DNA of 64,000 bases from a virus. Under the pieces are notes generated by a model, which was not told where the DNA came from, did not search any database, and saw nothing but the letters and a program-made list of their open reading frames with translations. The stretch spans positions 1 to 64,000 of IMG/VR virus record IMGVR_UViG_3300050821_005528; one strand, 5' to 3'. Below are positions 2,090 through 62,403 of the stretch, piece after piece. How positions within the stretch are numbered: position 1 is the stretch's first letter; each line of letters begins with the position of its first letter. The position numbers were made by a program, and so were the translations under genes.

Positions 2090-2117
2090 TTGACACTGGA
2101 ATAAGTCCAGTTATAGG
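2090..2117 (+). promoter_or_regulatory. sigma70-like promoter TTGACA-N16-TATAGG giving a near-leaderless mRNA for the HTH gene
   Basis: Perfect -35 hexamer. The -10 hexamer ends 8 nt before ATG 2126, and there is no SD between them. Confidence 0.4.
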
Positions 2118-2125
2118 TTGCCTCC

Positions 2126-2365
2126 ATGAACTCGATGGCCCACATCCGCAAAAGCGTCCTAAAGCTTTCGCAGGCTCAGATGGCGGCAATTGCGTGTTGC
2201 ACGCAGGCTCTTGTTTCCTATTGGGAATCCGGCGAACAGTTTCCCAACAAGGAACACATGGGCCGCATTCGGTCATACGCCAAAGCCAGCGGAATCAAAT
2301 GGGACGATTCGTGGTTCTTCGAGGCGCCACCGCAAGAGCCCGCCCCGCAAGCAGAGGCTTCCTGA
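2126..2365 (+). CDS. XRE/Cro-CI-type helix-turn-helix regulator (79 aa)
   Basis: LSQAQMAAIACCTQALVSYWESGEQFP is a typical HTH_3 core. The gene sits just downstream of the repeat-rich intergenic region that separates it from the leftward genes. Confidence 0.75.
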   Translation: MNSMAHIRKSVLKLSQAQMAAIACCTQALVSYWESGEQFPNKEHMGRIRSYAKASGIKWDDSWFFEAPPQEPAPQAEAS

Positions 2366-3492
2366 TGGGCGAGCGGTCCAAAATCGAATGGTGTGATAGC
2401 ACATGGCCCGTCGTTCAAGGCTGCGATCCGGTGTCGCCGGGTTGCACCAATTGCTACGCCGTTCCCCTTGTACATCGCCTTGCGTGGAACACGAACCCAA
2501 AGATATCGGCGCCGATCAAAGGCGTCGTCGAGCATCATAAGGACCGTTTGCGTTTCACCGGCAAGGTGGCGCTTCGCGAAGATCGGATGGATTGGCCGCT
2601 GAAATGGAAAAAAGGCCGCATGATCTTCGTGCCGAGCCATGGTGATCTATTCCACGAAGACGTGCCCGACGCATTCATTGATCGTGTATTCGCCGTGATG
2701 GCGTTGACGTCCCAGCATACTTACCAAGTGCTGACGAAGCGGGCGGAGCGGATGCTCCGCTACATGGAGCATTCCGAGTGCGAGGCCCGATGGATGAATG
2801 CGGTCGCCAATCTCTTCGAAGTCGATCGCACGCTAATGAACAGGTGCTATCCGATCATGAACCGCCGCGAGCCGTGGCTACCGTTGCCCAACGCATGGCT
2901 CGGCGTGTCCGCCGAAGACCAGCAGCGCGCCGACGAACGCATTCCCTTGCTCTTGCAGACTCCGGCGGCGGTGCGGTTCGTGAGCTTGGAGCCGCTGTTG
3001 GGGCCGATTGATCTCAGTGTATGGCCCAGGCGAGATTGGCTTCGGACCACCGGGTATGATGGGGCTGCGACCCAGCCGGGCCTCGACTGGGTGATCGTCG
3101 GTGGCGAATCCGGCCCCGGCCCGCATGCGCGGCCGATGCATCCCGACTGGGCAAGGTCGCTGCGCGATCAATGCGCGGCTGCTGATGTGCCCTACTTCTT
3201 CAAACAATGGGGCGAGTTTTTACCTGTCGGCCAGCACTTGCCCGGATTTGGCAAAATCCATGGCGCAACGGTGGTCAAGCCCGGCCGCATGAAGCTCCAC
3301 TACGGCGGAACGCCGAAGCAAACCCCGCAGCACGCGTTCGCTGAAAATGGCGTCGCGTTCACATCTATAGCCGACGGGCGCCTGACCTTTCGCGTCGGAA
3401 AGCGCGCCGCCGGCCGCTTGCTTGACGGCAGAGAGTGGAACGGGATGCCAGAGGGCAATGTCGTGAAACTAGCCGGAACGCGCGCCGGATAA
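2365..3492 (+). CDS. DUF5131 (phage Gp37/Gp68 family) three-Cys protein
   Basis: N-terminus SKIEWCDSTWPVVQGCDPVSPGCTNCYA is the family hallmark. Start set at ATG 2365, overlapping the previous stop (TGATG). The ORF-track 5' extension was rejected. Confidence 0.85.
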   Translation: MGERSKIEWCDSTWPVVQGCDPVSPGCTNCYAVPLVHRLAWNTNPKISAPIKGVVEHHKDRLRFTGKVALREDRMDWPLKWKKGRMIFVPSHGDLFHEDVPDAFIDRVFAVMALTSQHTYQVLTKRAERMLRYMEHSECEARWMNAVANLFEVDRTLMNRCYPIMNRREPWLPLPNAWLGVSAEDQQRADERIPLLLQTPAAVRFVSLEPLLGPIDLSVWPRRDWLRTTGYDGAATQPGLDWVIVGGESGPGPHARPMHPDWARSLRDQCAAADVPYFFKQWGEFLPVGQHLPGFGKIHGATVVKPGRMKLHYGGTPKQTPQHAFAENGVAFTSIADGRLTFRVGKRAAGRLLDGREWNGMPEGNVVKLAGTRAG

Positions 3493-3533
3493 GCGCATGT
3501 TTCACGGGGAACAATCGCTAAAAGGCGTTTTGA

Positions 3534-4811
3534 ATGAGCGATCTAGACAAAGTGCGCGCCCTCCTCGGTAAGGGTCTGAAAGAAGCCGCCATTGCAACGC
3601 GGCTCGGCGTTACCCGCCATCGGGCGCGAGTACTAGTCGATCAGGCGACGCGGGGACAAGCCATTGCCATCATCCCGCCGGCCGGACTCCCCGTGCTATC
3701 TTTCTACGACACCGCCCGCCAGGCGCTTGCTCAGGCCAAAACTCTCGCCGAAGTCAAAGAGATCGCCGACAAGGCCGATGGCATCCGAGAATTTGCGCGG
3801 CGGGCCAAAGATCGCCAACTCGAAATCGACGCGGCAGAGATGCGGATTCGTGCGGAATATGAATACGGCAAGCGGCTTATTCATGTGAAGGAAACGACCG
3901 GCTTCGCCAAGGGCGGCCAACCGTACCAACAGAAGTTTACCGGTCCCGATCTGGAACCAGTAGAGAAAGCGCCGACTCTCGTGGACCTCGGGGCGGACAA
4001 GAAGCTTTCCGCCAGGGCGCAAAAACTCGGCTCGATTTCGGAACGCGCGATGGAGGCGCGAGTCGCCCATTGGCGCCAGACTGCCGAGCATGGCGCGGAG
4101 CGAGTGACGGCGGACATTCTCAAGCAGCGCCCCGCTCCCTCCCGCTCAATGAACCGCACCGAGCCGGCTGATTCCCTCGATCCGTTCTTCACTCCCCCAT
4201 GGGCCACCCGCGCCCTCATGGAGCGCGTTCTTCCCCAGCTCGGCATGCACCCCAAGAACCATACCGAACGAAGCATATGGGAATCTGCCTGTGGCGAAGG
4301 CCATATGACCGGCGTGCTACAGGAATACTCGGAAATGGTATTCGCCTCGGACATCCACCAATACGGCGAAAACACGGTGCAGGACTTCCTTATCTGCGAC
4401 GCCAAGCCCGGCGCATTCCAGTGGATCATCACCAACCCGCCCTTCCGTGGCGATATGGCCGAGCGCTTCGTTCTAAGAGCGTTGGAACTGGCTTATGAAG
4501 GCGTCGCGATGTTCGTGGCTCTCCAATTTCTCGAAACTGTGGGCCGCTTCGAGCGCCTTTTCAAGGACCGTCCGCCGACGCTGATTTCGTTCTTCGCCGA
4601 ACGGGTGAATTGCTGCAAAGGCCGATGGGACCCGGACGGCTCGACCGATGCCGCCTATGTATGGCTCGTTTGGAAGAAAGATTTGAAGCCGATGGCGCCC
4701 TACTGGATTCCACCCGGACAACGAATCGGGCTAAGCAAACCCGACGACCGCGCCAAATATGCCGCCTGGTCGATGCCCGAAAACAAGATCGCGGGGGAGG
4801 CCGCCGAATGA
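3534..4811 (+). CDS. SAM-dependent DNA N6-adenine methyltransferase (gamma-class motif order) with N-terminal HTH/helical domain
   Basis: Motif I-like SACGEGHMTGVL lies upstream of motif IV IITNPPF. The N-terminal part is helical and charged, as is common in phage MTases. Confidence 0.8.
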   Translation: MSDLDKVRALLGKGLKEAAIATRLGVTRHRARVLVDQATRGQAIAIIPPAGLPVLSFYDTARQALAQAKTLAEVKEIADKADGIREFARRAKDRQLEIDAAEMRIRAEYEYGKRLIHVKETTGFAKGGQPYQQKFTGPDLEPVEKAPTLVDLGADKKLSARAQKLGSISERAMEARVAHWRQTAEHGAERVTADILKQRPAPSRSMNRTEPADSLDPFFTPPWATRALMERVLPQLGMHPKNHTERSIWESACGEGHMTGVLQEYSEMVFASDIHQYGENTVQDFLICDAKPGAFQWIITNPPFRGDMAERFVLRALELAYEGVAMFVALQFLETVGRFERLFKDRPPTLISFFAERVNCCKGRWDPDGSTDAAYVWLVWKKDLKPMAPYWIPPGQRIGLSKPDDRAKYAAWSMPENKIAGEAAE

Positions 4812-5374
4812 CCATACTTTCGCCGCTCGAAAGATTCCGCAAGAACCCTCAGTCCGATTGGTGGAAGGGTGACCCTTCGCGCCTCGATCAGCTAAAAGCC
4901 ATCCTCGCACGTAAACCCATTCCAAACGTAACCGAAATCATGATCGAGATGGGTGCCCCGTCCCGCAATTGCATTATCGGCAAGGCGCGGCGGGAAGGAT
5001 TGCAGCTACGGCCGCCACATCGCACCAACAGGCCGAAGAGAGTGAAAACCAAGCCGAACCGCAAACTCTACGTGCCACGTGCGGCCATCGATCTCCCCGC
5101 CAATTTCATCGCCATCGAAGCCGAAGAACGCCGCGAGAAAGCCCGCGAGACGATGCTCGCGGACATTGCTGAGCGCCAGGCCGCAGACGAAGCCGCGGCG
5201 CAAACGGGCGGCATTCCATTCATGGAGATCGGGAACGGGAAATGCCGCTGGCCGCTGACGGAGGTCAAGCCGCTCGCGGACTTCCGGTTCTGTGGGGCGA
5301 AGTGCGATGGCGTCTACTGCGCCCCTCATACGCGACGGTCGATGAATCGGTTTGTAGCGGAGGCGGCGGAATGA
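4808..5374 (+). CDS. gcrA: GcrA-family cell-cycle regulator homologue
   Basis: SRNCIIGKARREGLQLR resembles the GcrA N-terminal HTH (TRNAVIGKVHRLGL). The C-terminus CRWPL...FRFCGAK...YCAPH matches the GcrA C-terminal domain. ATGA overlap with the MTase. Confidence 0.8.
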   Translation: MTILSPLERFRKNPQSDWWKGDPSRLDQLKAILARKPIPNVTEIMIEMGAPSRNCIIGKARREGLQLRPPHRTNRPKRVKTKPNRKLYVPRAAIDLPANFIAIEAEERREKARETMLADIAERQAADEAAAQTGGIPFMEIGNGKCRWPLTEVKPLADFRFCGAKCDGVYCAPHTRRSMNRFVAEAAE

Positions 5375-5844
5375 AGGCCCTCACCATCTACCAGCCTTGG
5401 GCCTCCCTGATCATGATCGGGGCGAAACCCAACGAATTCCGCCGCTGGGACTATCGCACCCGCGAGCGCGGCCTTGAGGGGCAACGCATCGTCATCCACG
5501 CCAGCGCGCGCCCCATTCGTCTGGCCGAAATAGAAGACATCACAGCCCGCTTGAACGACGGCATTTCTGCGCTGCGCGGCGACATCGCGTTACCGCTGCT
5601 TGAGCGCATCAGGGCGGCGTGCGAGAGCGGCGGCGTGGTGGAGCTCTCTGCCGGACTTGGCACCGCTGTTCTGGGAGAGCCCAAGAAGGTCGATGAGTTG
5701 TTCAACTCCCCGGCCGATTCCGATCGCATCGACCATGATATGTGGGCGTGGCCGCTCACCGACATCCAGCCGTTTGCCGCGCCAGTGCCATGCCGTGGTA
5801 TGCAAGGATTCTGGTCGTGGCCGATGAAGGCAGAGGCGGCGTAA
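5371..5844 (+). CDS. ASCH/PUA-like domain protein
   Basis: N-terminus MKALTIYQPWASLIMIGAKPNEFRRW is typical of the ASCH fold. ATGA overlap. Confidence 0.65.
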   Translation: MKALTIYQPWASLIMIGAKPNEFRRWDYRTRERGLEGQRIVIHASARPIRLAEIEDITARLNDGISALRGDIALPLLERIRAACESGGVVELSAGLGTAVLGEPKKVDELFNSPADSDRIDHDMWAWPLTDIQPFAAPVPCRGMQGFWSWPMKAEAA

Positions 5845-6044
5845 TGATATTTCCGATGCGGCTGATCGTCAACAAGCCGGATTCTCCGACAGTGACGGCC
5901 GTCGCGTCGGATTCCGAAGAACTGGCATTGCGGCGCTGCTGCTATGCGCGGGCTATCAGCTTCACTGATGATGGGACAAGTGCGATTTGCCGGACCTGCG
6001 GGACAATCATGCCGGCTAATTGGTTTGCGAGGGAGCAAAGATGA
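5844..6044 (+). CDS. small Cys-containing protein (66 aa)
   Basis: CC...CRTCG cysteines. TAATG overlap. Confidence 0.45.
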   Translation: MIFPMRLIVNKPDSPTVTAVASDSEELALRRCCYARAISFTDDGTSAICRTCGTIMPANWFAREQR

Positions 6045-6379
6045 GCGACACAGCAACAGCAATCCCCTTCAAACTCGTGCAGGAGCAGGATCACGGCGAA
6101 GGCTGGGAATCGGCCGTTGTCGAGATATTCGGCCACCGCACGCATGCCGGCTTCATCCGCGAGGAAGAGCGATTCGGTGCAAAGATGATCCGCATCGATG
6201 TGCCGACGAATGGCGATATCGATCATCCGGTTTGGGAAACGCATTGGTACGGCGGGGCGTCGATCTTCTCGCTTACGCTGACGGACGCGGCGAGCGTATT
6301 TGCAGCAAACAAAGTCCAGCGGGCGCCAGCTCGGGTATTCCTACCGTCGCCGGATGATTATGAGGACGAAGACCAGTGA
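6041..6379 (+). CDS. hypothetical protein (112 aa)
   Basis: ATGA overlap and good codon bias. No domain recognised. Confidence 0.6.
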   Translation: MSDTATAIPFKLVQEQDHGEGWESAVVEIFGHRTHAGFIREEERFGAKMIRIDVPTNGDIDHPVWETHWYGGASIFSLTLTDAASVFAANKVQRAPARVFLPSPDDYEDEDQ

Positions 6380-6816
6380 CCGCCGACTCCCGCATGAATC
6401 TCAATCTCGCCGACATGCGCCTTGAACTCACGCCATCAAGCGCGCCGCTGGGCTACCTCGCGACGCCCTATACGCGCTATCCTCGCGGCATCTGGCACGC
6501 CTTCGTCGACGCATCAACGCTCGCCGCAAGGCTGCTGGCGGCTGGCGTGAAGGTATATAGCCCGATTGCGCACACGCATCCGCTTGCGATCTTCGGCGCC
6601 CTTGATCCGCTTGACCTCAAGATATGGCTTCCATTCGATGAAGCCATGATGACGGCGGCGCATGTTCTTATCATCGGCCAGCTCGACGGCTGGGACACAT
6701 CGAAGGGCGTCGCGCATGAGATCGAGTTCTTCGAACGGCACGGAAAGCCGATCTTCGATCTTGATCCGGCGAGCTTGGTGATGACGAGGCGACGGCTAAA
6801 TGATGAACGCACATAA
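6376..6816 (+). CDS. DUF1937-like / nucleoside 2-deoxyribosyltransferase-like fold protein
   Basis: GYLATPYTRY...VYSPIAHTH...GWDTSKGVAHEIEFF follows the pattern I associate with DUF1937. GTGA overlap. Confidence 0.55.
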   Translation: MTADSRMNLNLADMRLELTPSSAPLGYLATPYTRYPRGIWHAFVDASTLAARLLAAGVKVYSPIAHTHPLAIFGALDPLDLKIWLPFDEAMMTAAHVLIIGQLDGWDTSKGVAHEIEFFERHGKPIFDLDPASLVMTRRRLNDERT

Positions 6817-6839
6817 CCCCGAACCTCTCCTGAATTGAA
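6802..6839 (+). promoter_or_regulatory. bipartite recurrent element, copy 2 (GATGAACGCAC, 16-nt spacer ATAACCCCGAACCTCT, CCTGAATTGAA)
   Basis: Direct reading. It overlaps the stop of 6376-6816 and ends 9 nt before ATG 6848. It encodes the mini-ORF MNAHNPEPLLN (6803-6838). Confidence 0.65.
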
Positions 6840-6847
6840 TCGAACCC

Positions 6848-7291
6848 ATGCCCCGCCTCCGTCACAAATGGTCCAAGAAAACAAGACCGTCATCCATTCT
6901 CTCAATCCGAACCTGTATCAAGTGCTCTCTTGTCGAACATTCGAATCACGATTGGACTATAGGTCCAAAAGGAACACATTGGATAACTTGGTTCGAAGAA
7001 CGGAATCCAGAAATGAGGCTTATGGTGATGCCGGAATGTATTGAAGAATTAAGGGATGATTCAACTCCCGCCGTACCGGACGTTCGGTCGAACCATCAGC
7101 CCGATATCGAGCCAGACTACGAAAAGGAAATGAAATTGCCGCCCGGCACAACTTGCGCCGATTGCCTTCATTCGAGACGGTGCATCGCGCTTGGATTCTC
7201 TGTCTTGATCTCAACTTCTTGCGATTTCCATCCGAGTCGTTTTCGGTCGAACCATCAGTCCGATCGGGTGCCGGGGGCGAAGGAAGCATGA
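6848..7291 (+). CDS. hypothetical Cys-rich protein (147 aa), lower-GC island
   Basis: CIKCS...CADCLHSRRC...C cysteines. Contains an in-frame 23-nt direct repeat. Confidence 0.5.
   Translation: MPRLRHKWSKKTRPSSILSIRTCIKCSLVEHSNHDWTIGPKGTHWITWFEERNPEMRLMVMPECIEELRDDSTPAVPDVRSNHQPDIEPDYEKEMKLPPGTTCADCLHSRRCIALGFSVLISTSCDFHPSRFRSNHQSDRVPGAKEA
7083..7105 (+). repeat. direct repeat unit 1: TTCGGTCGAACCATCAG(C)CCGAT
   Basis: Matches 7242-7264 in 22 of 23 positions, 159 nt apart and in frame (RSNHQPD / RSNHQSD). Confidence 0.8.
7242..7264 (+). repeat. direct repeat unit 2
   Basis: See unit 1. Confidence 0.8.
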
Positions 7292-7476
7292 GCATTCCGA
7301 TCACAAAAGATGCGGTGCTCTATCTCGCTGGCACACTCCGCAGCATCATTGCGATGGCTGAAAAGGATAAGAGCGACACATCGGCAAGGATCGCCGCACT
7401 TGCGCAAGCGGGATTGGACCTCGCTGAGCACGGGGAGGAAGGGTGCACAAGGATGCGCGGCGGGGTCTGGAGATGA
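7288..7476 (+). CDS. hypothetical protein (62 aa)
   Basis: ATGA overlap. RBS GGCGAAGGAAGC. Confidence 0.5.
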   Translation: MSIPITKDAVLYLAGTLRSIIAMAEKDKSDTSARIAALAQAGLDLAEHGEEGCTRMRGGVWR

Positions 7477-8201
7477 CGTTCCGCATCGAAACTCTTGCCG
7501 AAGGTGTGACGCTCTATCTCGGGGATTGTCGCGAAATATTGCCGACGCTCGGAAAAGTTGATGCCGTGGTGACTGATCCGCCGTATGGGATAGCCGATAA
7601 GCCAATGTTAGACCTTCCTGGACGCGGGGGTCGTGGAAACAACGATTATCATCCGCCGAGCGATTGGGATGCTGAGATCAATCCCGAGTGGCCGCGTTTA
7701 TGCGGGAAGGCCGCTTCATTAGTTGCGTGGTTTGGACATTGGCGTAAACGGGCCGATGTGGAAAATGCTATCGGGCTGCCGATCCGCGCTGAAATAGTGT
7801 GGGCTAAAGACACGCATGTTGGGCCGCCATGCCCAGTTGCGTCGCGCGATGAGCGCATATGGTTATTTTCGATAGCTGGGATTAAGGGTGATACGTTCGA
7901 AACCTCTGTTTGGGATTGTCCGATCATACCAACATGGTCATTTAAGCACCATAAGAATGAAAAGCCGGTTGCACTTATGCAACGGCTAATTCGATTTCTG
8001 GGCAGTGAAATCATCCTCGATCCTTTCATGGGCTCAGGCACCACAGGCGTTGCCGCCGTCAAGCTCGGAAGGAAGTTCATTGGTATCGAAAAAGATCCCA
8101 AGTATTTCGACATCGCCTGCCGCCGCATCTCCGAAGCCTTGAAGCAGCCCGATCTCTTTATCGAAAAGCCCAAGCCCTTGCGGCAGGAGAGTTTGCTGTG
8201 A
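7473..8201 (+). CDS. beta-class (CcrM/HinfI-like motif order) DNA N6-A or N4-C methyltransferase
   Basis: Motif IV VVTDPPYG is N-terminal and motif I ILDPFMGSGTTGVAA is C-terminal. ATGA overlap. Confidence 0.85.
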   Translation: MTFRIETLAEGVTLYLGDCREILPTLGKVDAVVTDPPYGIADKPMLDLPGRGGRGNNDYHPPSDWDAEINPEWPRLCGKAASLVAWFGHWRKRADVENAIGLPIRAEIVWAKDTHVGPPCPVASRDERIWLFSIAGIKGDTFETSVWDCPIIPTWSFKHHKNEKPVALMQRLIRFLGSEIILDPFMGSGTTGVAAVKLGRKFIGIEKDPKYFDIACRRISEALKQPDLFIEKPKPLRQESLL

Positions 8202-8659
8202 AGTACTCCACAAAGAAGATGAGCGATAGACAGTTAGCCGGCAATCGCAAAATCCTCAATATGACGGGTGGTCGCTGCTACTATTGCGCCTTCCCGCTCC
8301 ACTTGGAAAATCCTCGTGATTGGATGATCATAGGCGTCTGCCGAGATTTTGTACGGGAACACAAATTGCCACGGCAGCGGGGTGGCGAGAACCATCACAG
8401 CAATTACGTTCCGTCCTGTTGGAACTGCAATGGGATAAAATCAACATTCACTCTCGACGAATTTCGATTTTTACGGGGGCTTAGGTGCGGCGATCTTTCA
8501 TTCACCTTTCCATTTGAACAACCAAACACCGCCGGCCGCGACTGGCTTATCGTTCATAGCGAAAGTTTCGAAAAGACGTTGATCCTAAAAAACTTTCCAT
8601 TGGCGCGGTCTCGTTATCATTCGCGCGATGGATTTGTGTCATCGCATGGGCGCCGCTAG
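8198..8659 (+). CDS. HNH endonuclease
   Basis: CYYC...EHKLPRQRGGENHHSNYVPSCWNCNGIKS matches an HNH motif with flanking Cys pairs. Lower-GC island. GTGA overlap. Confidence 0.8.
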   Translation: MKYSTKKMSDRQLAGNRKILNMTGGRCYYCAFPLHLENPRDWMIIGVCRDFVREHKLPRQRGGENHHSNYVPSCWNCNGIKSTFTLDEFRFLRGLRCGDLSFTFPFEQPNTAGRDWLIVHSESFEKTLILKNFPLARSRYHSRDGFVSSHGRR

Positions 8660-9684
8660 TGACATCTCGTCCCACCAACATCATCAGGCGCCATCACACG
8701 CGTTTCTTTACGACGCTACCAAATGAAATTTTCAATGACGAGCGTCTGGCGCTGGACGAAATGGCGTTGCTGGGGTGGCTTCTTAGCCGCCCCCATGACT
8801 GGGAGGTAATCCCAGCCCAAATTCGCAAGCGGTTTAAGGTGGGCCGCGACAAGTTCTACCGGCTCATGACGAGCCTTTGTAACGCCGGCTATGTGAAGCG
8901 AGAGAAGGAACGCGCGAAAGACGGGACGATCTCCTGCATCCGCTATGTCGTAACCGATGATCCGGCCATTCCGGTGAGGCGGGTAACGCAGGAAGAAGTC
9001 GATTCCGAGTCCGATAGCGAGTCTGACAATCCCGCGGTGCCGAGTGCGAGTGTGGCGCCCTTACAACAGCCTGAAAAACCGGATACGGCTGATCCGGATA
9101 CGGTTTTTCAGGGGCCAGGACTAAGTAATGATATATACAAAACTCCCCCCTACCCCCCATTGGAACCTATGGCGAATCCGCAAGGCGCCGTCGAAGCAGT
9201 AAGAAAGATTCCAGAATTCAAGGAATTGTTGAGCAAGTGGCCGTCCGGAAGCATTCTCAGCAGCTCGGCAGCGGAGCGCCGATTTCTGCGCCTTGATGCC
9301 GATCGTAAGGCCGCCGCTGTGAACGGCATCGCGGGCTATCTGGCGGGCATGCGGCTTCGTGGTTGGAAGGTCTGTGATCTGCAAACCTATTTGCGTGATC
9401 GCCGATGGGAAAAAGTTGGGGGAAACACCGAGAAGGTGGCTTACCTGACCAAAGGCGGCACGCCTCAGGCGTTTCGGTGGCTTGAATATCGCAAGGGGCT
9501 CGGAGAACCGACCGCCTTCATGGAGGATTGTTGGAAATCGGGTCGCCCCTGGTACGCGCCTTCCGAGTGGCCGCCTCCGGTTCCGAACGATGATCGCAAG
9601 GGAGAGCCCGTGGAACGCCATCCCCCTCCTGAAAATAACCCCGATCTTTCCCCTCTCGCCGACGAACTGGAACGCACCAAATGA
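8659..9684 (+). CDS. winged-HTH replication-initiator-like protein
   Basis: N-terminus FTTLPNEIFNDERLALDEMALLGWLLSRPHDWEV...FYRLMTSLCNAGYV is typical of phage and plasmid initiator wHTH domains. A low-complexity linker is encoded by the ori-like palindrome. Confidence 0.55.
   Translation: MTSRPTNIIRRHHTRFFTTLPNEIFNDERLALDEMALLGWLLSRPHDWEVIPAQIRKRFKVGRDKFYRLMTSLCNAGYVKREKERAKDGTISCIRYVVTDDPAIPVRRVTQEEVDSESDSESDNPAVPSASVAPLQQPEKPDTADPDTVFQGPGLSNDIYKTPPYPPLEPMANPQGAVEAVRKIPEFKELLSKWPSGSILSSSAAERRFLRLDADRKAAAVNGIAGYLAGMRLRGWKVCDLQTYLRDRRWEKVGGNTEKVAYLTKGGTPQAFRWLEYRKGLGEPTAFMEDCWKSGRPWYAPSEWPPPVPNDDRKGEPVERHPPPENNPDLSPLADELERTK
9070..9145. other. candidate replication origin: palindrome with two direct 10-mers, followed by an AT-rich tract
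   Basis: The sequence is CCTGAAAAA-CCGGATACGG-CTGAT-CCGGATACGG-TTTTTCAGG (9070-9112; the outer 12-mers are perfect inverted repeats). It is followed by CTAAGTAATGATATATACAAAACT. It lies inside the linker of the initiator-like gene, a lambda O/ori-like arrangement. Confidence 0.4.
9589..9638 (+). promoter_or_regulatory. bipartite recurrent element, copy 3, degenerate (GATGATCGCAA, 28-nt spacer, CCTGAAAATAA)
   Basis: Direct reading. It lies inside the 3' end of 8659-9684, 69 nt upstream of 9707 and the packaging module. Confidence 0.35.
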
Positions 9685-9706
9685 CCCGCTCTAGGACAAT
9701 GAATCC

Positions 9707-9997
9707 GTGACCAGGAAATACACGCCCGAAGAGGCGGCGCGCGCGAAGGCGCGTGAACGTATCCGTGTTCGCGAATGGCGACGTTCCCGCCGCGCCGAGG
9801 GAAGCCTCAGCCACCCGAGCGCCCATTACGCAAATCATGTCCACGTTCCGCTGGAAGTGGAACGTGACCGTCAAAAGCGGCTCGCCTATTCCGCGCCCGA
9901 TTTGACGGCTGCCGTGATGGGCGACCCGCCGCCTGAGCGTTCGGCGCTCTATCTCCGTCACCTTGTCAGCGTTTGCGGTGGTGATAAATCTGGGTGA
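9707..9997 (+). CDS. hypothetical basic protein (96 aa)
   Basis: GTG start with a weak RBS. Confidence 0.4.
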   Translation: MTRKYTPEEAARAKARERIRVREWRRSRRAEGSLSHPSAHYANHVHVPLEVERDRQKRLAYSAPDLTAAVMGDPPPERSALYLRHLVSVCGGDKSG

Positions 9998-10034
9998 GTC
10001 GCATTGGTGGCTTGAATGAACGAGATGGAATCAA

Positions 10035-10694
10035 ATGGAATCGGTCGCGTTGGTGCCCGTGGATGTCGGATCGGAGCCGCTTGCTGGGAAGCTTGAGCGG
10101 TTTGCGCAGATGCTCGCGCTGCGCCTTCCGCCCGATGCGGCAGCGCGCGAGGCCCAATACCCGGCATCAGGTGAGCCGGTCACATTCGCGGCGAATGCCC
10201 GAAAGCGTGCACGGCTTGCGTCAGTGCGTAGCCGAGTTAAGTGGCTGGCGCGGCAGGAAGAAGAGGTTCTGGCGGTCAAGCGCGAACGGCTGGAAGAGCG
10301 GCTGTGGGCTTGGCACGAGAGCGATATCGGGGCGTTCTATCACATGGTTGATGAGATTGTGTTTGACGCCGATGGCATGCCGATTCTCGGCGCCGATGGT
10401 GAGCCAAAAACCCGCACGGTTGAGCGGTTGAAGCTTTTCAGCGAAATGCCGCCTGAGCAGCGCTTGCTCGTCAAATCGCTGCGTTACACCGAGCGCGGCA
10501 AGCCTAACTTGGAGCTTTACGGCGCCGACGACGCAAACCGCGAACTGCGCAAGCTGAACGGTCTTGATGTCCAGCGCACGGCTGGCGAGGCCAACTTCGA
10601 TCGCATGTCGGACGCCCAGATTTTCCACGAACTGGCGCGGCAGGCAAGCGAGCTGGGGGTGAACGTCACGCTGTCGATTGATGGAGGCGCGTAG
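10035..10694 (+). CDS. terS: terminase small subunit
   Basis: Positioned directly upstream of and overlapping terL. It has a helical N-terminus and a C-terminal part (LKLFSEMPPEQRLLVKSLRYTERGKPNLELYGADDANRELRKLNG) like Terminase_2-type small subunits. Confidence 0.65.
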   Translation: MESVALVPVDVGSEPLAGKLERFAQMLALRLPPDAAAREAQYPASGEPVTFAANARKRARLASVRSRVKWLARQEEEVLAVKRERLEERLWAWHESDIGAFYHMVDEIVFDADGMPILGADGEPKTRTVERLKLFSEMPPEQRLLVKSLRYTERGKPNLELYGADDANRELRKLNGLDVQRTAGEANFDRMSDAQIFHELARQASELGVNVTLSIDGGA

Positions 10695-12444
10695 CGTGCT
10701 TTCGCGCCGCTCCCTCGGGCAATTGCTGGCCGGCGTCGCGGCGCTTGCGATGTCGGGTGAAGCCGCGCCTGCGCGTGAAAAGCTCGAAAGGCTGCGGCGC
10801 ACGGCTGCGGAAGCATTACGCCGCATTGCTCGCGACGAGCAATCGCGTTATGGTTGGTATGATGAGAACGGTGTCCGCCAGGGTGGATTGATCGCCTTCG
10901 TGCGGTATTTCTGGCACGTGCTGGAACCCGAGACGCCGTTTGTCGATGGCTGGCCGCTGTGGGTGATGTGCGAGCACCTTGAGGGCGTCACGCGTGGGGA
11001 AATCACGCATTTGTTGGTCAACGTCCCGCCTGGCTTCATGAAGTCGTTGCTGGTGGATGTGTTCTGGCCGGCGTGGGAGTGGGGGCCGATGGACCTGGCG
11101 CATCTGCGGTATGTGGCGTTTTCGTATTCCGCATCCCTGACGGAACGCGACAACGGCCGCTTTCGCGACCTGATCACCAGCCCGGGATATGTCGCGCTGT
11201 ATAAGGGCGTTCGGCCTCGCAACAAGACCACGCTCAAGGTTCACAATACGCGCACGGGTTGGAAGCTCGCTTCGTCGGTCGGCGGCGTGGGCACCGGCGA
11301 GCGCGGCGACCGCATCATTCTCGATGACCCCCACAACGTGAAGGAAGCCGAATCTGATACCGTGCGCGAGGAAACCGTGCGGTGGTTTCGCGAGTCGCTG
11401 TCGTCGCGCTTCAACAACGAGAACACGGCATTCATCGTCATCATGCAGCGCGTCCACGAAGACGACGTGTCCGGTGTGATTCTCAGTGCGGGCCTCGGCT
11501 ATTGTCACGTTTGCATACCGTGGGAATACGAGTATGGCCGCTGCGTCGATGCGAAAGGCGATCCGGTGCCTAACAGCTTTGGGTGGGTCGATCCACGCCT
11601 CGCGCCGCTCGCGCCAGATGAATGCGAAGGTCTTCCTGCCTGGGAAGCGCGTTTCCCCCCCAAGGTGATCGATATGCTGCGCCACGCCCTCGGGCCTTAC
11701 GCCTGGGCTGGGCAATACCAGCAGGCGCCGAGCCCGCGCGGCGGCGGTATCTTCCAGCGCGATTGGTGGCAGTTATGGGAATCCGATGACGGCAAGTTCC
11801 CGACGCTCGAATATGTGGTCGCATCGCTCGATGGCGCTTTCACCGAGGACGAAGAGAACGATCCGTCAGCCCTGACCGTATGGGGGGTGTTCATCAATGA
11901 CCAGAACCGCCGCCGCGTCATTCTTCTGCATGCGTGGCGCAAGTTCTTGAAGTTCTCCGGGCCGCGAATCGCCATGGAGGGCGGTGAAACGAAGGCCGCC
12001 TATCGTCGGCGTTGCATGCCGGAATGGGGCCTGATCGAGTGGACCGCCGATACGTGTCGCCGCTTCAAGGTCGATCTGCTCCTGATCGAGGGCAAGGCGT
12101 CTGGTATGAGTGCCGCCGATGAATTGCGCGGCCGGTACGGGTTTGAAGGATGGGGCATTCACATCATGCCTGTCAAAGGGGATAAGGTAGCGCGTGCCCT
12201 TGCGGTACAGCCAATATTTTCCCAATTTACGGTCTATGCGCCGGATCGCGACTGGGCCGAAATGGTGATCGACGAGATGGCGGTATTTCCGAAAGGGAAA
12301 TATGATGACCTGACCGACTCGGCCACTCAAGCTATGGGGTATCTGCGTGGCGTGGGGATGGTGCAAAGCGATGAGGAGGCTGCGGCGGCTGAAATCGAGC
12401 CGGCCGTTCACAAGCCGCGCCAGCGGGCGCTTTATCCGGTGTAG
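10681..12444 (+). CDS. terL: terminase large subunit
   Basis: Walker A-like VNVPPGFMKS, Walker B IILDDPHN and coupling motif VIMQRVHEDD. The C-terminal nuclease half has ASLDGAF...DPSAL and DDLTDSATQAM. Confidence 0.9.
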   Translation: MEARSVLSRRSLGQLLAGVAALAMSGEAAPAREKLERLRRTAAEALRRIARDEQSRYGWYDENGVRQGGLIAFVRYFWHVLEPETPFVDGWPLWVMCEHLEGVTRGEITHLLVNVPPGFMKSLLVDVFWPAWEWGPMDLAHLRYVAFSYSASLTERDNGRFRDLITSPGYVALYKGVRPRNKTTLKVHNTRTGWKLASSVGGVGTGERGDRIILDDPHNVKEAESDTVREETVRWFRESLSSRFNNENTAFIVIMQRVHEDDVSGVILSAGLGYCHVCIPWEYEYGRCVDAKGDPVPNSFGWVDPRLAPLAPDECEGLPAWEARFPPKVIDMLRHALGPYAWAGQYQQAPSPRGGGIFQRDWWQLWESDDGKFPTLEYVVASLDGAFTEDEENDPSALTVWGVFINDQNRRRVILLHAWRKFLKFSGPRIAMEGGETKAAYRRRCMPEWGLIEWTADTCRRFKVDLLLIEGKASGMSAADELRGRYGFEGWGIHIMPVKGDKVARALAVQPIFSQFTVYAPDRDWAEMVIDEMAVFPKGKYDDLTDSATQAMGYLRGVGMVQSDEEAAAAEIEPAVHKPRQRALYPV

Positions 12445-46846: not shown

Positions 46847-46892
46847 TTTAATTCAGGTGAGAATTCCCGGGGTAATGGCGCGTGCGATCATC
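46847..46892 (-). promoter_or_regulatory. bipartite recurrent element, copy 4 (minus strand: GATGATCGCAC, 24-nt spacer, CCTGAATTAAA)
   Basis: Direct reading of the reverse complement. It ends 28 nt upstream of start 46819. Mini-ORF MIARAITPGILT (46891-46853). Confidence 0.65.
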
Positions 46893-49276: not shown

Positions 49277-49319
49277 TCGCACTTGCCTTTCCCCATGTCC
49301 GTCATTCTCCTGAATTAAA
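49272..49319 (+). promoter_or_regulatory. bipartite recurrent element, copy 5 (GATGATCGCAC, 26-nt spacer, CCTGAATTAAA)
   Basis: Box1 overlaps the regulator's stop codon. It ends 25 nt before ATG 49344. Mini-ORFs are MSVILLN (49295-49318) and a 24-aa ORF (49273-49347) ending in ATGA with 49344. Confidence 0.65.
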
Positions 49320-51148: not shown

Positions 51149-51185
51149 GATGATCGCACGTAACCCCAAATCTCTCCTGAATTGG
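51149..51185 (+). promoter_or_regulatory. bipartite recurrent element, copy 7 (GATGATCGCAC, 16-nt spacer GTAACCCCAAATCTCT, CCTGAATTGG)
   Basis: The box1 ATG is the start codon of CDS 51150. Box2 reads TGG where other copies read TGA, so translation continues. Confidence 0.65.
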
Positions 51186-51554
51186 CTCTATCTTCTCGCC
51201 GCCTCCATCCTCATCTTCTATGGGGCAACCCGAGCCTTCGCCTTCGACAACGGCCAATATGGTGATGTCCCCGACAATATCCGTTCATGGTTCAAGGGCG
51301 TTCATTCGCCCAACGGAGTCCCTTGCTGTGATATAGCCGACGGCCACCGCACCACTTGGGAAAAGCATCCCGGCGATGACCGTTACTGGGTTCCGATCGA
51401 AACCGAATGGTTTCCCGTGCCATCCGAAGCCGTCATCCACAACGCCGGCAATCCGACCGGAGAGGCCGTCGTCTGGTACGTCATGAAGGATGCGACGGCG
51501 CCGTTTCCGGGGAAATATCACATCCGGTGCTTTGTGCCCGGAGAGGGAGTTTAA
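51150..51554 (+). CDS. secreted protein (134 aa)
   Basis: Signal-peptide-like LLNWLYLLAASILIFYGATRAFA followed by FDNG. Contains a CC pair. Confidence 0.6.
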   Translation: MIARNPKSLLNWLYLLAASILIFYGATRAFAFDNGQYGDVPDNIRSWFKGVHSPNGVPCCDIADGHRTTWEKHPGDDRYWVPIETEWFPVPSEAVIHNAGNPTGEAVVWYVMKDATAPFPGKYHIRCFVPGEGV

Positions 51555-57543: not shown

Positions 57544-57586
57544 CGTTCCAAACGCCAGCGTTCCTATCGAGGTAAGGAGTGATATC

Positions 57587-57733
57587 ATGTGGTGGCTCGT
57601 GTGGGGAGGAAGTTTCCTCGTCATCGCGGTTCTGGCGATCGATAGTTACCTGGTCCGGGTGCTGCGGCTCCCGGTACCAAGCGAAAGCACGAAATGGGAG
57701 GCTCTTCGGGGCCTCCCCTCTTCCCGTAAATAA
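57587..57733 (+). CDS. 48-aa single-TM protein (holin/antiholin-like candidate)
   Basis: Strong RBS GGTAAGGAGTGATATC followed by ATG. Starts MWWLVWGGSFLVIAVLAIDSYLV. Confidence 0.45.
   Translation: MWWLVWGGSFLVIAVLAIDSYLVRVLRLPVPSESTKWEALRGLPSSRK
57696..57717 (+). terminator. hairpin GGGAGGC-tcttcggg-GCCTCCC inside the 3' end of the 48-aa ORF
   Basis: Perfect 7-bp GC-rich stem. Followed by a C/T-rich stretch rather than a U-run. Confidence 0.25.
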
Positions 57734-57746
57734 GGCGAGAAAGACC

Positions 57747-58526
57747 ATGACCAACCCCCACGGCGGCTACGGCTGGCGGCGTTCCCTGCCGGATCATCGC
57801 GACGCGCCTTTCACCGCCGCCCTCATGGCGCGGCTCCCCACGACGTTGCCTGCGCACCGAGACGACCGGGGCACCAAGTATATGCCCCCGGTCTACAACC
57901 AGGGCCAGACTTCGAGTTGCACCGGCAACGGCACGGCCGGCGCCTTACAGTACAGGCGCCGCAAGCAGGGCCTCCCTGATTTCATGCCGTCGCGAATGTT
58001 CATCTACTACAACGGCCGCGCCATCGACGGCACCACAAGCTTCGATGGTGGTTCTCAGGTCCGCAACGTCATCAAAGCAGTGGCGACTCAAGGCGCGTGC
58101 GATGAAACCGAGTGGCCGTTTCGGACCGACCAGATCAATATGCGCCCGACCGACAAATGCTATTTCGATGCCAAGACCGACCTCGTGACCGGCTACGCGG
58201 CCGTCCCGCAGAACATCGACGCCATCCGGGCCTGCATCGCAAGCGACACGCCCGTCGTGTTCGGCTTCACGGTATACCCGCAGTTCGAGTCAGACGCGAT
58301 GGCGCGTAGCGGCATGATGGAGATGCCGGGCGACAGCGACGCGCCGCTCGGCGGCCACTGTCCGCTGGCGTGCGGCTATAGCGATAAGAGCAGAGTGGTG
58401 ATCTGCCGGAACAGCTGGGGACCGGACTGGGCGGACGGGGGTTATTTTTATATGCCGTATGATTACATCACCAACCCCGGGCTCGCCGCTGACTTCTGGC
58501 AGATCGACGTGGTGACGGGGCGATGA
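57747..58526 (+). CDS. papain-like cysteine peptidase (family C1)
   Basis: Oxyanion Gln and catalytic Cys in VYNQGQTSSCTGNG. Catalytic His in PLGGHCPLACGY. Asn/Trp in CRNSWGPDWADGGYFYMPY. Confidence 0.85.
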   Translation: MTNPHGGYGWRRSLPDHRDAPFTAALMARLPTTLPAHRDDRGTKYMPPVYNQGQTSSCTGNGTAGALQYRRRKQGLPDFMPSRMFIYYNGRAIDGTTSFDGGSQVRNVIKAVATQGACDETEWPFRTDQINMRPTDKCYFDAKTDLVTGYAAVPQNIDAIRACIASDTPVVFGFTVYPQFESDAMARSGMMEMPGDSDAPLGGHCPLACGYSDKSRVVICRNSWGPDWADGGYFYMPYDYITNPGLAADFWQIDVVTGR

Positions 58527-60505: not shown

Positions 60506-60619
60506 ATGGGTCTGATCCTTCTTGTTATCGTTGTTCTCGTCCTGTTCGGCATAGGACACTTTGGTGCAGCGACCGGCCGACCGATGATCGCACATAACCC
60601 CGGCTCTCTCCTGAATTGA
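60506..60619 (+). CDS. 37-aa single-TM peptide ending in the recurrent-element mini-ORF
   Basis: MGLILLVIVVLVLFGIGHFGAATGRPMIAHNPGSLLN. Confidence 0.35.
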   Translation: MGLILLVIVVLVLFGIGHFGAATGRPMIAHNPGSLLN

Positions 60620-62361: not shown

Positions 62362-62403
62362 TGGCAAGGGAGAACGATATGGCAATCCCTCTCCTGAATT
62401 GAA
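62357..62403 (+). promoter_or_regulatory. bipartite recurrent element, copy 9 (GATGATGGCAA, 25-nt spacer, CCTGAATTGAA)
   Basis: Box1 overlaps the stop of 61885-62361. Mini-ORF MMARENDMAIPLLN (62358-62402). Confidence 0.6.

What the first reader, a model, noticed from the sequence alone, without database searches (positions are those of the whole stretch)
2365..8201. ATGA-chained epigenetic/host-takeover module: DUF5131 three-Cys protein, gamma-class MTase, GcrA homologue, ASCH, DUF1937-like, beta-class MTase
Seen in sequence:
- DUF5131 hallmark with a C-x5-C-x2-C cluster (GCDPVSPGCTNCY).
- An adjacent MTase (motif I, then NPPF).
- A GcrA-like protein (HTH SRNCIIGKARREGL; C-terminus CRWPL...FCGAK...YCAPH).
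- An ASCH domain.
- A CcrM-like-order MTase (DPPY, then FMGSGTTG).
Nearly all junctions are 1-4 nt overlaps.
Established knowledge: in Caulobacter, GcrA is an RNAP-sigma70 cofactor favouring CcrM-methylated GANTC promoters, and GcrA homologues have been noted in phiCbK-like phages. DUF5131 (Pfam Gp37/Gp68) has no known function. From memory, it is often paired with a methyltransferase-like partner.
Inference: the phage carries both writers (two MTases, perhaps an Fe-S enzyme) and a methylation-sensitive reader or transcription factor. This could redirect host RNAP to phage promoters, possibly the GATC-containing recurrent element, and protect against restriction.
Basis: partly seen in the sequence, partly recalled or inferred. 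Interest (0 to 1): 0.65.

Follow-up and report, generated by a model that had tools for sequence, protein, structure and literature searches.

The report
Phage methylase coupled to GcrA reader
An uncultured phage of an alphaproteobacterium carries, in one tightly packed early operon, its own copy of both halves of the host's cell-cycle DNA-methylation switch: a likely GANTC adenine methylase, directly coupled to a GcrA-type RNA-polymerase cofactor that reads that mark.

Summary
Positions 2126-9684 form one same-strand gene chain, mostly with 1-4 nt overlaps. It encodes DUF5131, an NPPF methyltransferase, a GcrA-family protein, an ASCH-like protein, DUF1937 and a DPPY (beta-class) methyltransferase.

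The interpretation needs three corrections.

1. The likely CcrM mimic is the NPPF enzyme, not the beta-class one. Its catalytic domain is 45% identical (E 4e-56) to PhiLM21_p027, a phage enzyme shown experimentally to methylate GANTC. The beta-class enzyme's target is unknown.

2. The conserved unit is only the pair methyltransferase→GcrA. Six of nine lineages carrying a long-form relative (at least 50% identical) keep a GcrA gene beside it, five with overlapping stop and start codons. Three distant lineages have the reverse order. DUF5131, ASCH, DUF1937 and the beta-class enzyme are shuffled independently. DUF5131 is next to this methyltransferase type in only 3 of 80 of its own relatives.

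3. The recurrent "GATC" element carries no conserved GANTC, and GANTC is not enriched between genes.

The GcrA homologue keeps every methyl-pocket and base-contact residue except one, the CCCH zinc finger and the main sigma-70 contacts.

Best reading: a phage-borne writer-reader cassette that imposes a methylated-GANTC, GcrA-active transcription state on the host. No function was tested.

The parts
2090..2117 (+). Candidate sigma-70 early promoter (TTGACA, 16-nt spacer, TATAGG) ending 8 nt before the first ATG of the operon. It contains no GANTC.
   Evidence: Read directly from the sequence. The consensus scanner did not report it. Inference only.
2126..2365 (+). 79-aa HTH (Cro-like) protein, first gene of the chain. 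It overlaps the DUF5131 start by 1 nt.
   Evidence: Weak HTH_3 hit (E 3.7e-4) and phrog_8 transcriptional regulator. Junction.
2365..3492 (+). DUF5131 (Gp37/Gp68) protein, 375 aa. It has an invariant C20-x6-C27-x2-C30 cluster and an invariant GGESG at 246-250. Probably a radical-SAM-type Fe-S enzyme with an unknown substrate. Not part of the conserved cassette.
   Evidence: Pfam 9e-92. Weak TIGR04471 radical-SAM hit over residues 237-281. Listed as a radical-SAM subgroup in PMC9477430. Invariant columns. AF2 model pLDDT 88. The highest-probability Foldseek matches are spore photoproduct lyase, but with TM only about 0.3.
3534..4811 (+). 425-aa N6-adenine DNA methyltransferase, gamma-type motif order (motif I ...ACGEGH..., then ITNPPF). 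It has an N-terminal helical/HTH extension (residues 1-185) and a catalytic domain (about 215-410). Predicted GANTC (CcrM-like) specificity: the 'writer'.
   Evidence: 45% identity, E 4e-56, over the full length of PhiLM21_p027, which methylates GANTC experimentally (PMC5537653). 27% identity, E 7e-9, to the GANTC enzyme Phi3LM21_p21. Matches phrog_799. AF2 pLDDT 84, with M.TaqI among the top structural matches.
4808..5374 (+). 188-aa GcrA-family protein, the 'reader'. It has an N-terminal HTH DNA-binding domain (about residues 17-65), a linker, and a C-terminal CCCH zinc-finger sigma-70-interacting domain (C146, C162, C171, H174). It shares an ATGA overlap with the methyltransferase gene.
   Evidence: Pfam GcrA 51.3 bits. 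HMMER against Caulobacter GcrA chain 7ye1_G, E 7.6e-6, covering both domains. Key residues tabulated against 130 family representatives, with functional roles taken from PMC5887438.
5371..5844 (+). 157-aa ASCH-like (PUA-fold) protein. ATGA overlap with the GcrA gene.
   Evidence: Pfam ASCH 19.3 bits, below the 21.2 cut-off. phrog_3193 at 3.7e-24. Only faint PDB hits to ASC-1 ASCH domains.
5844..6044 (+). 66-aa Cys-rich small ORF (CC...CxxC), function unknown.
   Evidence: Called as a gene on four independent metagenome contigs. No family hit. Junctions.
6041..6379 (+). 112-aa protein, phage family of unknown function.
   Evidence: phrog_29525 at 1.8e-28.
6376..6816 (+). 146-aa DUF1937 protein (nucleoside 2-deoxyribosyltransferase-like fold family).
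   Evidence: Pfam 4e-21. phrog_355. PDB 1t1j at 5.6e-10. Found next to NPPF methyltransferases in 14 of 160 loci.
6809..6837 (+). One copy of a recurrent element, GCACRTAACCCC-N3-YCTCTCCTGAATTG. It overlaps the DUF1937 stop codon and fills the 31-nt gap, splitting the chain into two overlap-coupled blocks.
   Evidence: Three exact matches to the degenerate pattern in the window against 0 expected. Repeat family D1.
6848..7291 (+). ORF of 147 aa. Metagenome gene callers start it at 7028, giving 87 aa. Only the C-terminal part is conserved.
   Evidence: phrog_10154 matches residues 87-137 only. The 87-aa version is called on other contigs. Homologues are about 70 aa.
7288..7476 (+). 62-aa ORF, function unknown.
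   Evidence: No family hit.
7473..8201 (+). 242-aa beta-class N6/N4 DNA methyltransferase (DPPY, then FMGSGTTG). Target sequence unknown. Not a CcrM orthologue.
   Evidence: N6_N4_Mtase 1.4e-24. CcrM equivalog 65 bits against a cut-off of 830. PDB matches cover only the SAM-binding region. Best phage relatives are 38-42% identical.
8198..8659 (+). 153-aa HNH endonuclease.
   Evidence: Pfam HNH 1.4e-5.
8659..9684 (+). 341-aa replication initiation / DnaD-like protein. It places the methyltransferase genes upstream of the replication gene, as reported for other GANTC phage methylases.
   Evidence: phrog_270 at 2e-13 and phrog_186. Positional rule from PMC5537653.
9995..10001 (+). TGAGTCG, a perfect match to the Caulobacter GcrA-preferred site YGAKTCG. 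It lies 34 nt before the terminase small-subunit start (10035). Candidate phage target, speculative.
   Evidence: Consensus from PMC5887438. Not statistically compelling.

Best explanation
Positions 2126-9684 are the early (rightward) operon of a phage that infects an alphaproteobacterium. Its functional core is a two-gene writer-reader cassette.

The 425-aa NPPF methyltransferase most likely methylates the adenine of GANTC. That is the target of the host's cell-cycle methylase CcrM, but the phage enzyme belongs to an unrelated protein family.

The next gene overlaps it in an ATGA and so is probably translated together with it. It encodes a diverged GcrA: a small protein whose C-terminal zinc-finger domain docks on region 2 of the host sigma-70. 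Its N-terminal helix-turn-helix reads m6A-GANTC.

Making both at once would free the infected cell from the normal timing. CcrM is normally present only late in the cycle, and GcrA only in S phase. The cassette would switch on methylation-dependent sigma-70 promoters: the host GcrA regulon, perhaps a few phage promoters, and perhaps also protect phage DNA.

The other genes (DUF5131, ASCH-like, DUF1937, the beta-class methyltransferase, HNH) are accessory early genes that recombine independently among related phages.

What is shown: gene order, homology, conserved residues, and conservation of the pair across lineages. What is inferred: GANTC specificity, sigma-70 and m6A binding, co-translation, and the physiological effect.
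For: Writer:
- The catalytic domain is 45% identical, E 4e-56, end to end with PhiLM21_p027.
- It is 27% identical, E 7e-9, to Phi3LM21_p21.
- Both enzymes were shown by HinfI protection to methylate GANTC. Family members only 33% identical to each other share that specificity. Their genes sit upstream of replication genes (PMC5537653), as here.

Reader:
- Both GcrA domains align to Caulobacter GcrA.
- R53, N54, I57, G58, K59 and R62 correspond to the methyl-pocket and base-contact residues R33, N34, I37, G38, K39 and R42.
- C146, C162, C171 and H174 correspond to the CCCH zinc finger.
- W148, F159, F161 and Y170 correspond to the sigma-70 contacts W120, F130, F132 and Y142 (roles).

Coupling:
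- ATGA overlap in the window.
- Nine lineages carry a long-form relative at least 50% identical for which context is available. Five have methyltransferase→GcrA with overlapping stop and start: the window, P0008, P0011, P0025 and P0028.
- One more has GcrA two genes upstream. Three lack it.
- Three distant short-form lineages have the reverse order, GcrA→methyltransferase, directly adjacent.
- In those relatives DUF5131 is replaced by DUF2303 or is absent.
Against: - No activity was measured. Specificity is inferred at 45% identity.
- GANTC is depleted in the phage genome (177 against 274 expected) and YGAKTCG more so (32 against 74). Neither is enriched between genes relative to control palindromes. 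There is therefore no genome-wide sign of GcrA-dependent phage promoters.
- The early promoter region has no GANTC.
- The GcrA homologue is far from cellular GcrA (43 bits against the 280-bit equivalog cut-off). It differs at H41→R and Y151→M.
- Among 160 more distant methyltransferase loci, 24 have a GcrA-like ORF nearby and only about 8 of those are full length. A DUF5131-anchored control gives 4 of 80 (Fisher p = 0.03).
Confidence: 0.6

Rival explanations
1. The genes are unrelated cargo. The two methyltransferases serve only to protect phage DNA from host restriction systems. The GcrA homologue is an independent host-takeover gene that happens to lie next to one of them. The operon is a mosaic with no writer-reader logic.
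For: - Gene content around the methyltransferase is highly mosaic.
- Phi3LM21 has DUF5131 and ASCH in a different operon from its GANTC methylase.
- Three of nine close lineages lack GcrA.
- GANTC and several other palindromes are depleted, as expected under restriction pressure.
Against: - The methyltransferase→GcrA overlap is kept in five lineages while the proteins diverge. The methyltransferases fall to 51-77% identity and, in the one pair compared, the GcrA proteins to 41%.
- The same two families are juxtaposed in the opposite order in three distant lineages.
- The methylase's predicted target is exactly the GcrA recognition core.
Confidence: 0.2
2. The pair is a timer for the phage's own middle and late genes. 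Phage DNA becomes GANTC-methylated only after the early methylase accumulates. The phage GcrA then recruits sigma-70 RNA polymerase to methylated sites in front of the late operons.
For: - Perfect GcrA-type sites lie in the gaps before the terminase genes (TGAGTCG, 9995-10001) and in the intergenic region before the GH25 lysin gene (TGATTCG, 51035).
- A GAATC follows the recurrent element at 6837.
- GANTC is densest inside the early operon itself: 29 sites in 2126-7291 against 14.3 expected.
Against: - Overall there is no intergenic enrichment of GANTC.
- Only 2 of the 8 TGAKTCG sites are intergenic, which could be chance.
- No clear -35/-10 elements lie next to these sites.
- The density test was post hoc.
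Confidence: 0.12
3. The GcrA homologue is an antagonist. It occupies sigma-70 region 2, or GANTC sites, in competition with host GcrA and so shuts down the host cell-cycle programme rather than activating it.
For: - It is divergent from cellular GcrA and has an N-terminal extension and changes at H41 and Y151.
- Related prophages encode proteins that are only the sigma-70-interacting domain.
Against: The DNA-reading residues are fully kept, which a pure sigma-70 blocker would not need.
Confidence: 0.08

Closest known systems
Caulobacter crescentus CcrM/GcrA epigenetic module (GANTC m6A writer plus sigma-70 cofactor reader)
   Same: - The recognition core (GANTC) is the same by prediction.
   Different: - The writer is not CcrM. 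It is a gamma-type NPPF enzyme of an unrelated family (PMC5537653).
- In the window the two genes are overlapping neighbours in a phage operon.
Phage methyltransferases with CcrM-like specificity (PhiLM21_p027, Phi2LM21_p21, Phi3LM21_p21; Dziewit 2014, Decewicz 2017)
   Same: - Same protein family, NPPF motif and position upstream of the replication genes.
- 45% identity to p027 and 27% to Phi3LM21_p21.
- Like the Phi2/Phi3 enzymes, it is a long form with an N-terminal extension.
   Different: - PhiLM21 and Phi3LM21 have no annotated GcrA gene beside the methylase in the regions examined.
- The coupling to GcrA was not described in the papers found.
GcrA homologues of phiCbK-like Caulobacter phages and Agrobacterium phage Atu_ph08
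   Same: A phage-encoded GcrA-family protein, proposed to manipulate the host replication and cell-cycle state (PMC3556154, PMC6630229).
   Different: - Those are in large lytic phages. The passages read report them without a paired GANTC methylase.
- The window protein is too diverged to find any of them by tblastn.
DUF5131 (Pfam PF07505, phage Gp37/Gp68), a radical-SAM superfamily subgroup, sometimes paired with TcmP
   Same: - Strong family match, three invariant Cys and a GGE-type motif.
- A phage and prophage early-gene setting.
   Different: - Its neighbour here is not TcmP.
- The Cys spacing is x6/x2 rather than the canonical x3/x2.
- No function is known for any member in the literature held.

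Membership tests
GcrA family (Pfam PF07750) | Score above the Pfam gathering threshold | tested here: met
   51.3 bits against 26.9.
GcrA family (Pfam PF07750) | N-terminal HTH with methyl-pocket and base-contact residues R33, N34, I37, G38, K39, R42 (Caulobacter numbering) | tested here: met
   The equivalents are R53, N54, I57, G58, K59 and R62. H41 is R61, a variable position that is H in 78 of 130 representatives (roles).
GcrA family (Pfam PF07750) | C-terminal CCCH zinc finger and sigma-70 contact residues W120, F130, F132, Y142 | tested here: met
   C146, C162, C171 and H174, plus W148, F159, F161 and Y170, are conserved. The spacing is x15/x8/x2 against x14/x9/x2. The G129 position is D/E in 77 of 130 representatives, so it is not diagnostic. 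Y151 is M here.
Cellular GcrA orthologue (NCBIfam NF050816 equivalog) | Equivalog score cut-off | tested here: not met
   43.4 bits against 280. It is a diverged paralogue, not the cellular orthologue.
GcrA family (function) | Binds sigma-70 region 2 and prefers m6A-GANTC DNA | not testable with these tools
   Needs two-hybrid or pull-down assays and EMSA.
Phage NPPF/W/Y m6A methyltransferases with CcrM-like (GANTC) specificity | Homology over the whole catalytic domain to an experimentally characterised member | tested here: met
   45% identity, E 4e-56, to PhiLM21_p027 residues 1-209 of 215. 27% identity, E 7e-9, to Phi3LM21_p21.
Phage NPPF/W/Y m6A methyltransferases with CcrM-like (GANTC) specificity | SAM-binding motif before the NPPF catalytic motif; gene upstream of the replication module | tested here: met
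   ACGEGH at 252-257 and NPPF at 301-304, invariant in 37 homologues. The replication initiator gene lies downstream at 8659.
Phage NPPF/W/Y m6A methyltransferases with CcrM-like (GANTC) specificity | Methylates GANTC | not testable with these tools
   Needs a HinfI protection assay or a SMRT/Nanopore methylome.
CcrM (beta-class, NCBIfam NF050803), considered for the 242-aa DPPY enzyme | Beta-class motif order (DPPY before FxGxG) | tested here: met
   DPPY at residues 35-38 and FMGSGTTG at 185-192.
CcrM (beta-class, NCBIfam NF050803), considered for the 242-aa DPPY enzyme | Equivalog score and full-length match | tested here: not met
   65.5 bits against 830. Only profile positions 184-255 of 350 match. 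The protein is 242 aa.
Radical SAM superfamily, considered for DUF5131 | Canonical CX3CX2C cluster motif | tested here: not met
   The spacing is C-x6-C-x2-C, although all three Cys are invariant and followed by an aromatic residue.
Radical SAM superfamily, considered for DUF5131 | GGE-type SAM-binding motif and partial TIM-barrel fold | tested here: inconclusive
   GGESG is nearly invariant. There is a weak TIGR04471 hit over it. The highest-probability Foldseek matches are spore photoproduct lyase, but at E about 1e-2 and TM about 0.3. DUF5131 is listed as a radical-SAM subgroup in PMC9477430.
DUF5131-TcmP gene pair | Adjacent TcmP (TIGR04474) partner | tested here: not met
   The neighbouring 425-aa protein has no NCBIfam hit at E <= 0.01. 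The upstream neighbour is a 79-aa HTH protein.
ASCH domain (PF04266) | Pfam gathering threshold | tested here: inconclusive
   19.3 bits against 21.2 over residues 4-59 only. It has a strong PHROG family match. The DUF5131-containing operon of Phi3LM21 also holds a gene annotated as ASCH.
DUF1937 (PF09152) | Pfam gathering threshold | tested here: met
   76.2 bits against 23. PDB 1t1j at 5.6e-10.

The most novel reading that the evidence does not exclude
The methyltransferase-GcrA pair is a self-contained epigenetic clock for the phage. Its own GANTC methylation marks phage and host DNA. Its own sigma-70 cofactor then turns on methylated promoters, including those before the terminase and lysis genes. 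The neighbouring PUA-fold ASCH protein and the DUF5131 enzyme, whose best though weak structural matches are spore photoproduct lyase, act on the same modified DNA.
Probability: 0.15. Interest if true: 0.75.

Novelty: new variant of a known kind. Interest (0 to 1): 0.5.

Why it matters
Phage GcrA homologues and phage CcrM-mimicking methylases have each been reported, but the papers found discuss them separately. Here they form a conserved, overlapping two-gene cassette in several uncultured alphaproteobacterial phage lineages.

That turns a loose idea, that phages tamper with the host cell-cycle epigenetic switch, into a testable two-gene unit. One can express the pair, read the methylome and measure GcrA-regulon transcription. 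It would be a compact example of a virus importing both writer and reader of a bacterial epigenetic mark.

The analysis also shows that DUF5131 is not part of that unit. Its function must be sought elsewhere.

Tried and rejected
- Single-protein scans of IMG/VR with the GcrA homologue and with the methyltransferase catalytic domain found nothing. An alignment-based query was needed.
- tblastn of the window GcrA against 50,697 phage records gave no hit. A more canonical GcrA query gave only 10 weak hits. Cultured phages therefore could not be used for synteny.
- The PDB sequence search for DUF5131 returned nothing. The fold search gave only weak TIM-barrel-like matches.
- The first 160-locus survey suggested only a 15% GcrA linkage, and many hits proved to be proteins made of the sigma-70-interacting domain alone. 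The strong conservation appeared only when close long-form relatives were looked up one by one.
- A test for intergenic enrichment of GANTC was negative.
- I rejected the idea that G129→D disables sigma-70 binding. D/E is the family norm at that position.
- I rejected the recurrent element as a GcrA target. It has no conserved GANTC.
- Literature searches for DUF5131, TcmP and PF07505 gave no functional study. Dziewit 2014 (PMC4249059) is not held, so its result is cited through Decewicz 2017.
- I could not assign a target to the beta-class methyltransferase.
- I found no integrase in the window. Relatives with the same cassette do have an integrase and a CI/Cro-type pair.

Full report
**What is there**

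The window is a phage genome, or most of one. Terminase subunits sit at 10035-12444, long same-strand structural ORFs follow, and a GH25 lysin gene lies at 51407. Overall G+C is about 60%.

Positions 2126-9684 form a single + strand chain of 13 genes. Junctions were checked base by base. Two are short gaps, of 41 nt and 31 nt.

A plausible sigma-70 promoter lies just upstream of the first gene, a 79-aa HTH protein. It reads TTGACA at 2090-2095, a 16-nt spacer, then TATAGG. The chain ends with an HNH endonuclease and a replication-initiator homologue (phrog_270). It is therefore the early/replication operon.

- The DUF5131 cysteine cluster is C-x6-C-x2-C.
- ASCH falls just below Pfam's threshold but has a strong PHROG match.
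- Several small ORFs were omitted.

**Which methyltransferase mimics CcrM**

The evidence points the other way.

The DPPY enzyme (242 aa) matches CcrM only over the generic SAM-binding segment. It scores 65 bits against the 830-bit equivalog cut-off. Its target cannot be inferred.

The 425-aa NPPF enzyme has a C-terminal catalytic domain that aligns end to end with PhiLM21_p027. The match is 45% identity, E 4e-56. It aligns more distantly with Phi3LM21_p21, at 27% identity, E 7e-9.

Decewicz et al. 2017 (PMC5537653) report several relevant points:
- These enzymes methylate GANTC, shown by HinfI protection.
- They are unrelated in sequence to CcrM, so the shared specificity is convergent.
- Members only 33% identical to each other share that specificity.
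- The genes sit upstream of phage replication genes, exactly as here.

An AlphaFold model (pLDDT 84) shows a small N-terminal HTH, long helices and a Rossmann domain. M.TaqI, a gamma-class N6-adenine methylase, is among the best structural matches. GANTC specificity is thus a well-founded prediction, but not a measurement.

**The GcrA homologue**

It passes Pfam's threshold and aligns with Caulobacter GcrA (PDB 7ye1 chain G) across both domains. Wu et al. 2018 (PMC5887438) define three sets of functional residues:
- The methyl pockets and base contacts: R33, N34, I37, G38, K39, H41, R42.
- The CCCH zinc finger: C118, C133, C143, H146.
- The sigma-70 contacts whose mutation abolishes binding: W120, G129, F130, F132, Y142, Y151.

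I aligned the window protein with 130 representatives found by an exhaustive HMMER search. That search gave 794 clusters at E <= 1e-3.

The window protein has the family-consensus residue at W3, R33, N34, I37, G38, K39 and R42. It also does at C118, W120, F130, F132, C133, Y142, C143 and H146.

The position of Caulobacter G129 is D or E in 77 of 130 sequences, so the window's residue there is not a defect. H41→R and Y151→M fall at variable positions.

The protein is nevertheless far from cellular GcrA: 43 bits against the 280-bit equivalog cut-off. It also has a 17-residue N-terminal extension.

**What is conserved and what is not**

The same protein occurs on at least four other metagenome contigs with identical gene order.

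I took the relatives of the methyltransferase and looked up the contigs of its closer long-form relatives, those at least 50% identical:

| Relative | Methyltransferase identity | GcrA context |
|---|---|---|
| P0008 | 77% | methyltransferase→GcrA, overlapping stop/start |
| P0011 | 62% | methyltransferase→GcrA, overlapping stop/start |
| P0025 | 56% | methyltransferase→GcrA, overlapping stop/start |
| P0028 | 51% | methyltransferase→GcrA, overlapping stop/start |
| P0018 | 58% | GcrA two genes upstream, same strand |
| P0020 (locus L091) | 56% | none |
| P0026 | 54% | none |
| P0030 | 50% | none |

Including the window, six of nine lineages link the two genes.

In P0008 and P0011 the gene upstream of the methyltransferase is a DUF2303 protein, not DUF5131. 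Only the window and L091 have DUF5131 adjacent.

Among 160 more distant loci (80 GTDB genomes, nearly all Alphaproteobacteria, and 80 IMG/VR contigs), an iterated GcrA profile found 24 GcrA-like ORFs within 6 kb. All 24 are on the same strand. Alignment and Pfam show that about eight are full-length GcrA. In three of them (L158, L159, L165) GcrA lies immediately upstream of a short PhiLM21_p027-type methylase, the reverse gene order.

The same two families are thus juxtaposed in both orders and with both long and short methylase forms. That argues for selection on the linkage.

As a control, I examined the 80 closest IMG/VR relatives of DUF5131:
- Three have an NPPF methylase nearby.
- Four have a beta-class methylase nearby.
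- Four have a GcrA-like ORF nearby, three of them on the opposite strand.

For GcrA-like ORFs, 24/160 against 4/80 gives Fisher p = 0.03.

In Phi3LM21, DUF5131 and ASCH lie in the leftward operon and the GANTC methylase in the rightward one. The six-gene 'module' is therefore a mosaic. Only the writer-reader pair behaves as a unit.

**DUF5131**

The family is very large; the search reached its 8000-candidate limit. Three Cys and a GGESG motif are invariant or nearly so.

The evidence for a radical-SAM relationship is as follows:
- A weak match to the radical-SAM 'mobile pair protein A' model covers the GGESG region.
- RadicalSAM.org lists DUF5131 as a radical-SAM subgroup (megacluster 5-2), in the same megacluster as spore photoproduct lyase (5-3) (PMC9477430).
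- The AlphaFold model is confident (pLDDT 88).
- Structural matches are weak. The highest-probability ones are spore photoproduct lyase, at probability 0.89, E about 1e-2 and TM about 0.3.

An Fe-S, SAM-using enzyme is the best guess. Its substrate is unknown. Its neighbour here is not the TcmP partner protein.

**Do GANTC sites mark phage promoters?**

GANTC is depleted: 177 observed against 274 expected, z = -5.8. The extended GcrA site YGAKTCG is depleted more: 32 against 74 expected. Other palindromes, such as GGNCC, are depleted too.

Using my own codon-usage gene calls, GANTC is no more intergenic than control palindromes. After allowing for genes that the caller missed, the intergenic share is about what length predicts.

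A few individual sites are suggestive but not significant:
- TGAGTCG lies 34 nt before the terminase small-subunit start.
- TGATTCG lies in the gap before the lysin gene.
- GAATC follows the recurrent element at 6837.

GANTC is densest inside the early operon itself: 29 sites in 2126-7291 against 14.3 expected. That test was post hoc, p = 4e-4.

It reads GCACRTAACCCC-N3-YCTCTCCTGAATTG, with three exact copies against none expected. It has no conserved GANTC, and its GATC is absent from the copy inside this region.

**Mechanism and rivals**

The best-supported reading (about 0.6) is a phage-borne CcrM-mimic/GcrA writer-reader cassette. Made early, and probably co-translated, it would impose a fully methylated, GcrA-active state and drive methylation-dependent sigma-70 promoters.

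The rivals are:
- Unrelated cargo, with the methylases acting purely as anti-restriction devices (0.2).
- A methylation-timed switch for the phage's own late genes (0.12).
- An antagonist of host GcrA (0.08).

**Novelty**

Phage GcrA homologues are known (Gill 2012, PMC3556154; Attai 2019, PMC6630229). Phage GANTC methylases are also known (Decewicz 2017). A 2022 paper mentions the two side by side as separate phenomena (PMC9437464).

I found no paper describing them as a coupled pair. The held library is incomplete, however. I therefore rate this a new variant of a known kind, of moderate interest.

Noticed in passing
window 6809-6837, 51156-51184, 60590-60618; partial copies at 62389-62401, 49305-49317 and 46849-46861 (- strand): A recurrent element, GCACRTAACCCC-N3-YCTCTCCTGAATTG, has 3 exact copies against 0 expected. 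In two copies an ATG follows 10-13 nt later (6848; 60632, which opens a signal-peptide-like ORF). The upstream CGATGATCGCAC carries GATC in two copies but reads AATGATGAACGCAC at 6797. It may be a promoter or a translation-initiation signal.
   Followed up: partly
loci L033, L037, L045, L047, L052, L057, L060, L139, L150 and L155 (1-3 kb upstream of the NPPF methylase, same strand), e.g. L045:3044-3457: Prophages of Bosea, Chelatococcus and related Alphaproteobacteria encode proteins of about 100 aa. These consist only of the GcrA sigma-70-interacting CCCH domain plus a conserved C-terminal QPELTEIFG motif, with no DNA-binding domain. They may be sigma-70-binding modulators. They fall below Pfam GcrA detection.
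   Followed up: partly
window 2126-7291: GANTC is depleted genome-wide but densest inside the operon that encodes the predicted GANTC writer and reader: 29 sites against 14.3 expected from the window's average rate. There are no sites from 7235 to 9000. This is a post hoc observation of unknown cause.
   Followed up: partly
window 2090-2128: TTGACA-N16-TATAGG ends 8 nt before the ATG of the first operon gene. This suggests a leaderless or near-leaderless early transcript, as for some cI/cro-type genes.
   Followed up: no
window 6000-10000: This stretch holds the beta-class methylase, HNH, small ORFs and the replication initiator. Its G+C is about 55-56%, against about 60-64% for most of the genome. 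My codon-usage gene caller scored several of its ORFs poorly, which hints at a different origin.
   Followed up: no
loci L252-L255 (genes just upstream of the methylase, e.g. L252:6076-6882): In the closest relatives the slot occupied by DUF5131 in the window holds a DUF2303 protein preceded by a YfdP-family protein. L252 also carries an integrase and a divergent CI/Cro-like HTH pair, so this phage group includes temperate members.
   Followed up: no
window 57579-58526: A 315-aa papain-family cysteine protease (Peptidase_C1, E 5.6e-13) is encoded in the phage genome, a few genes downstream of the GH25 lysin gene.
   Followed up: no
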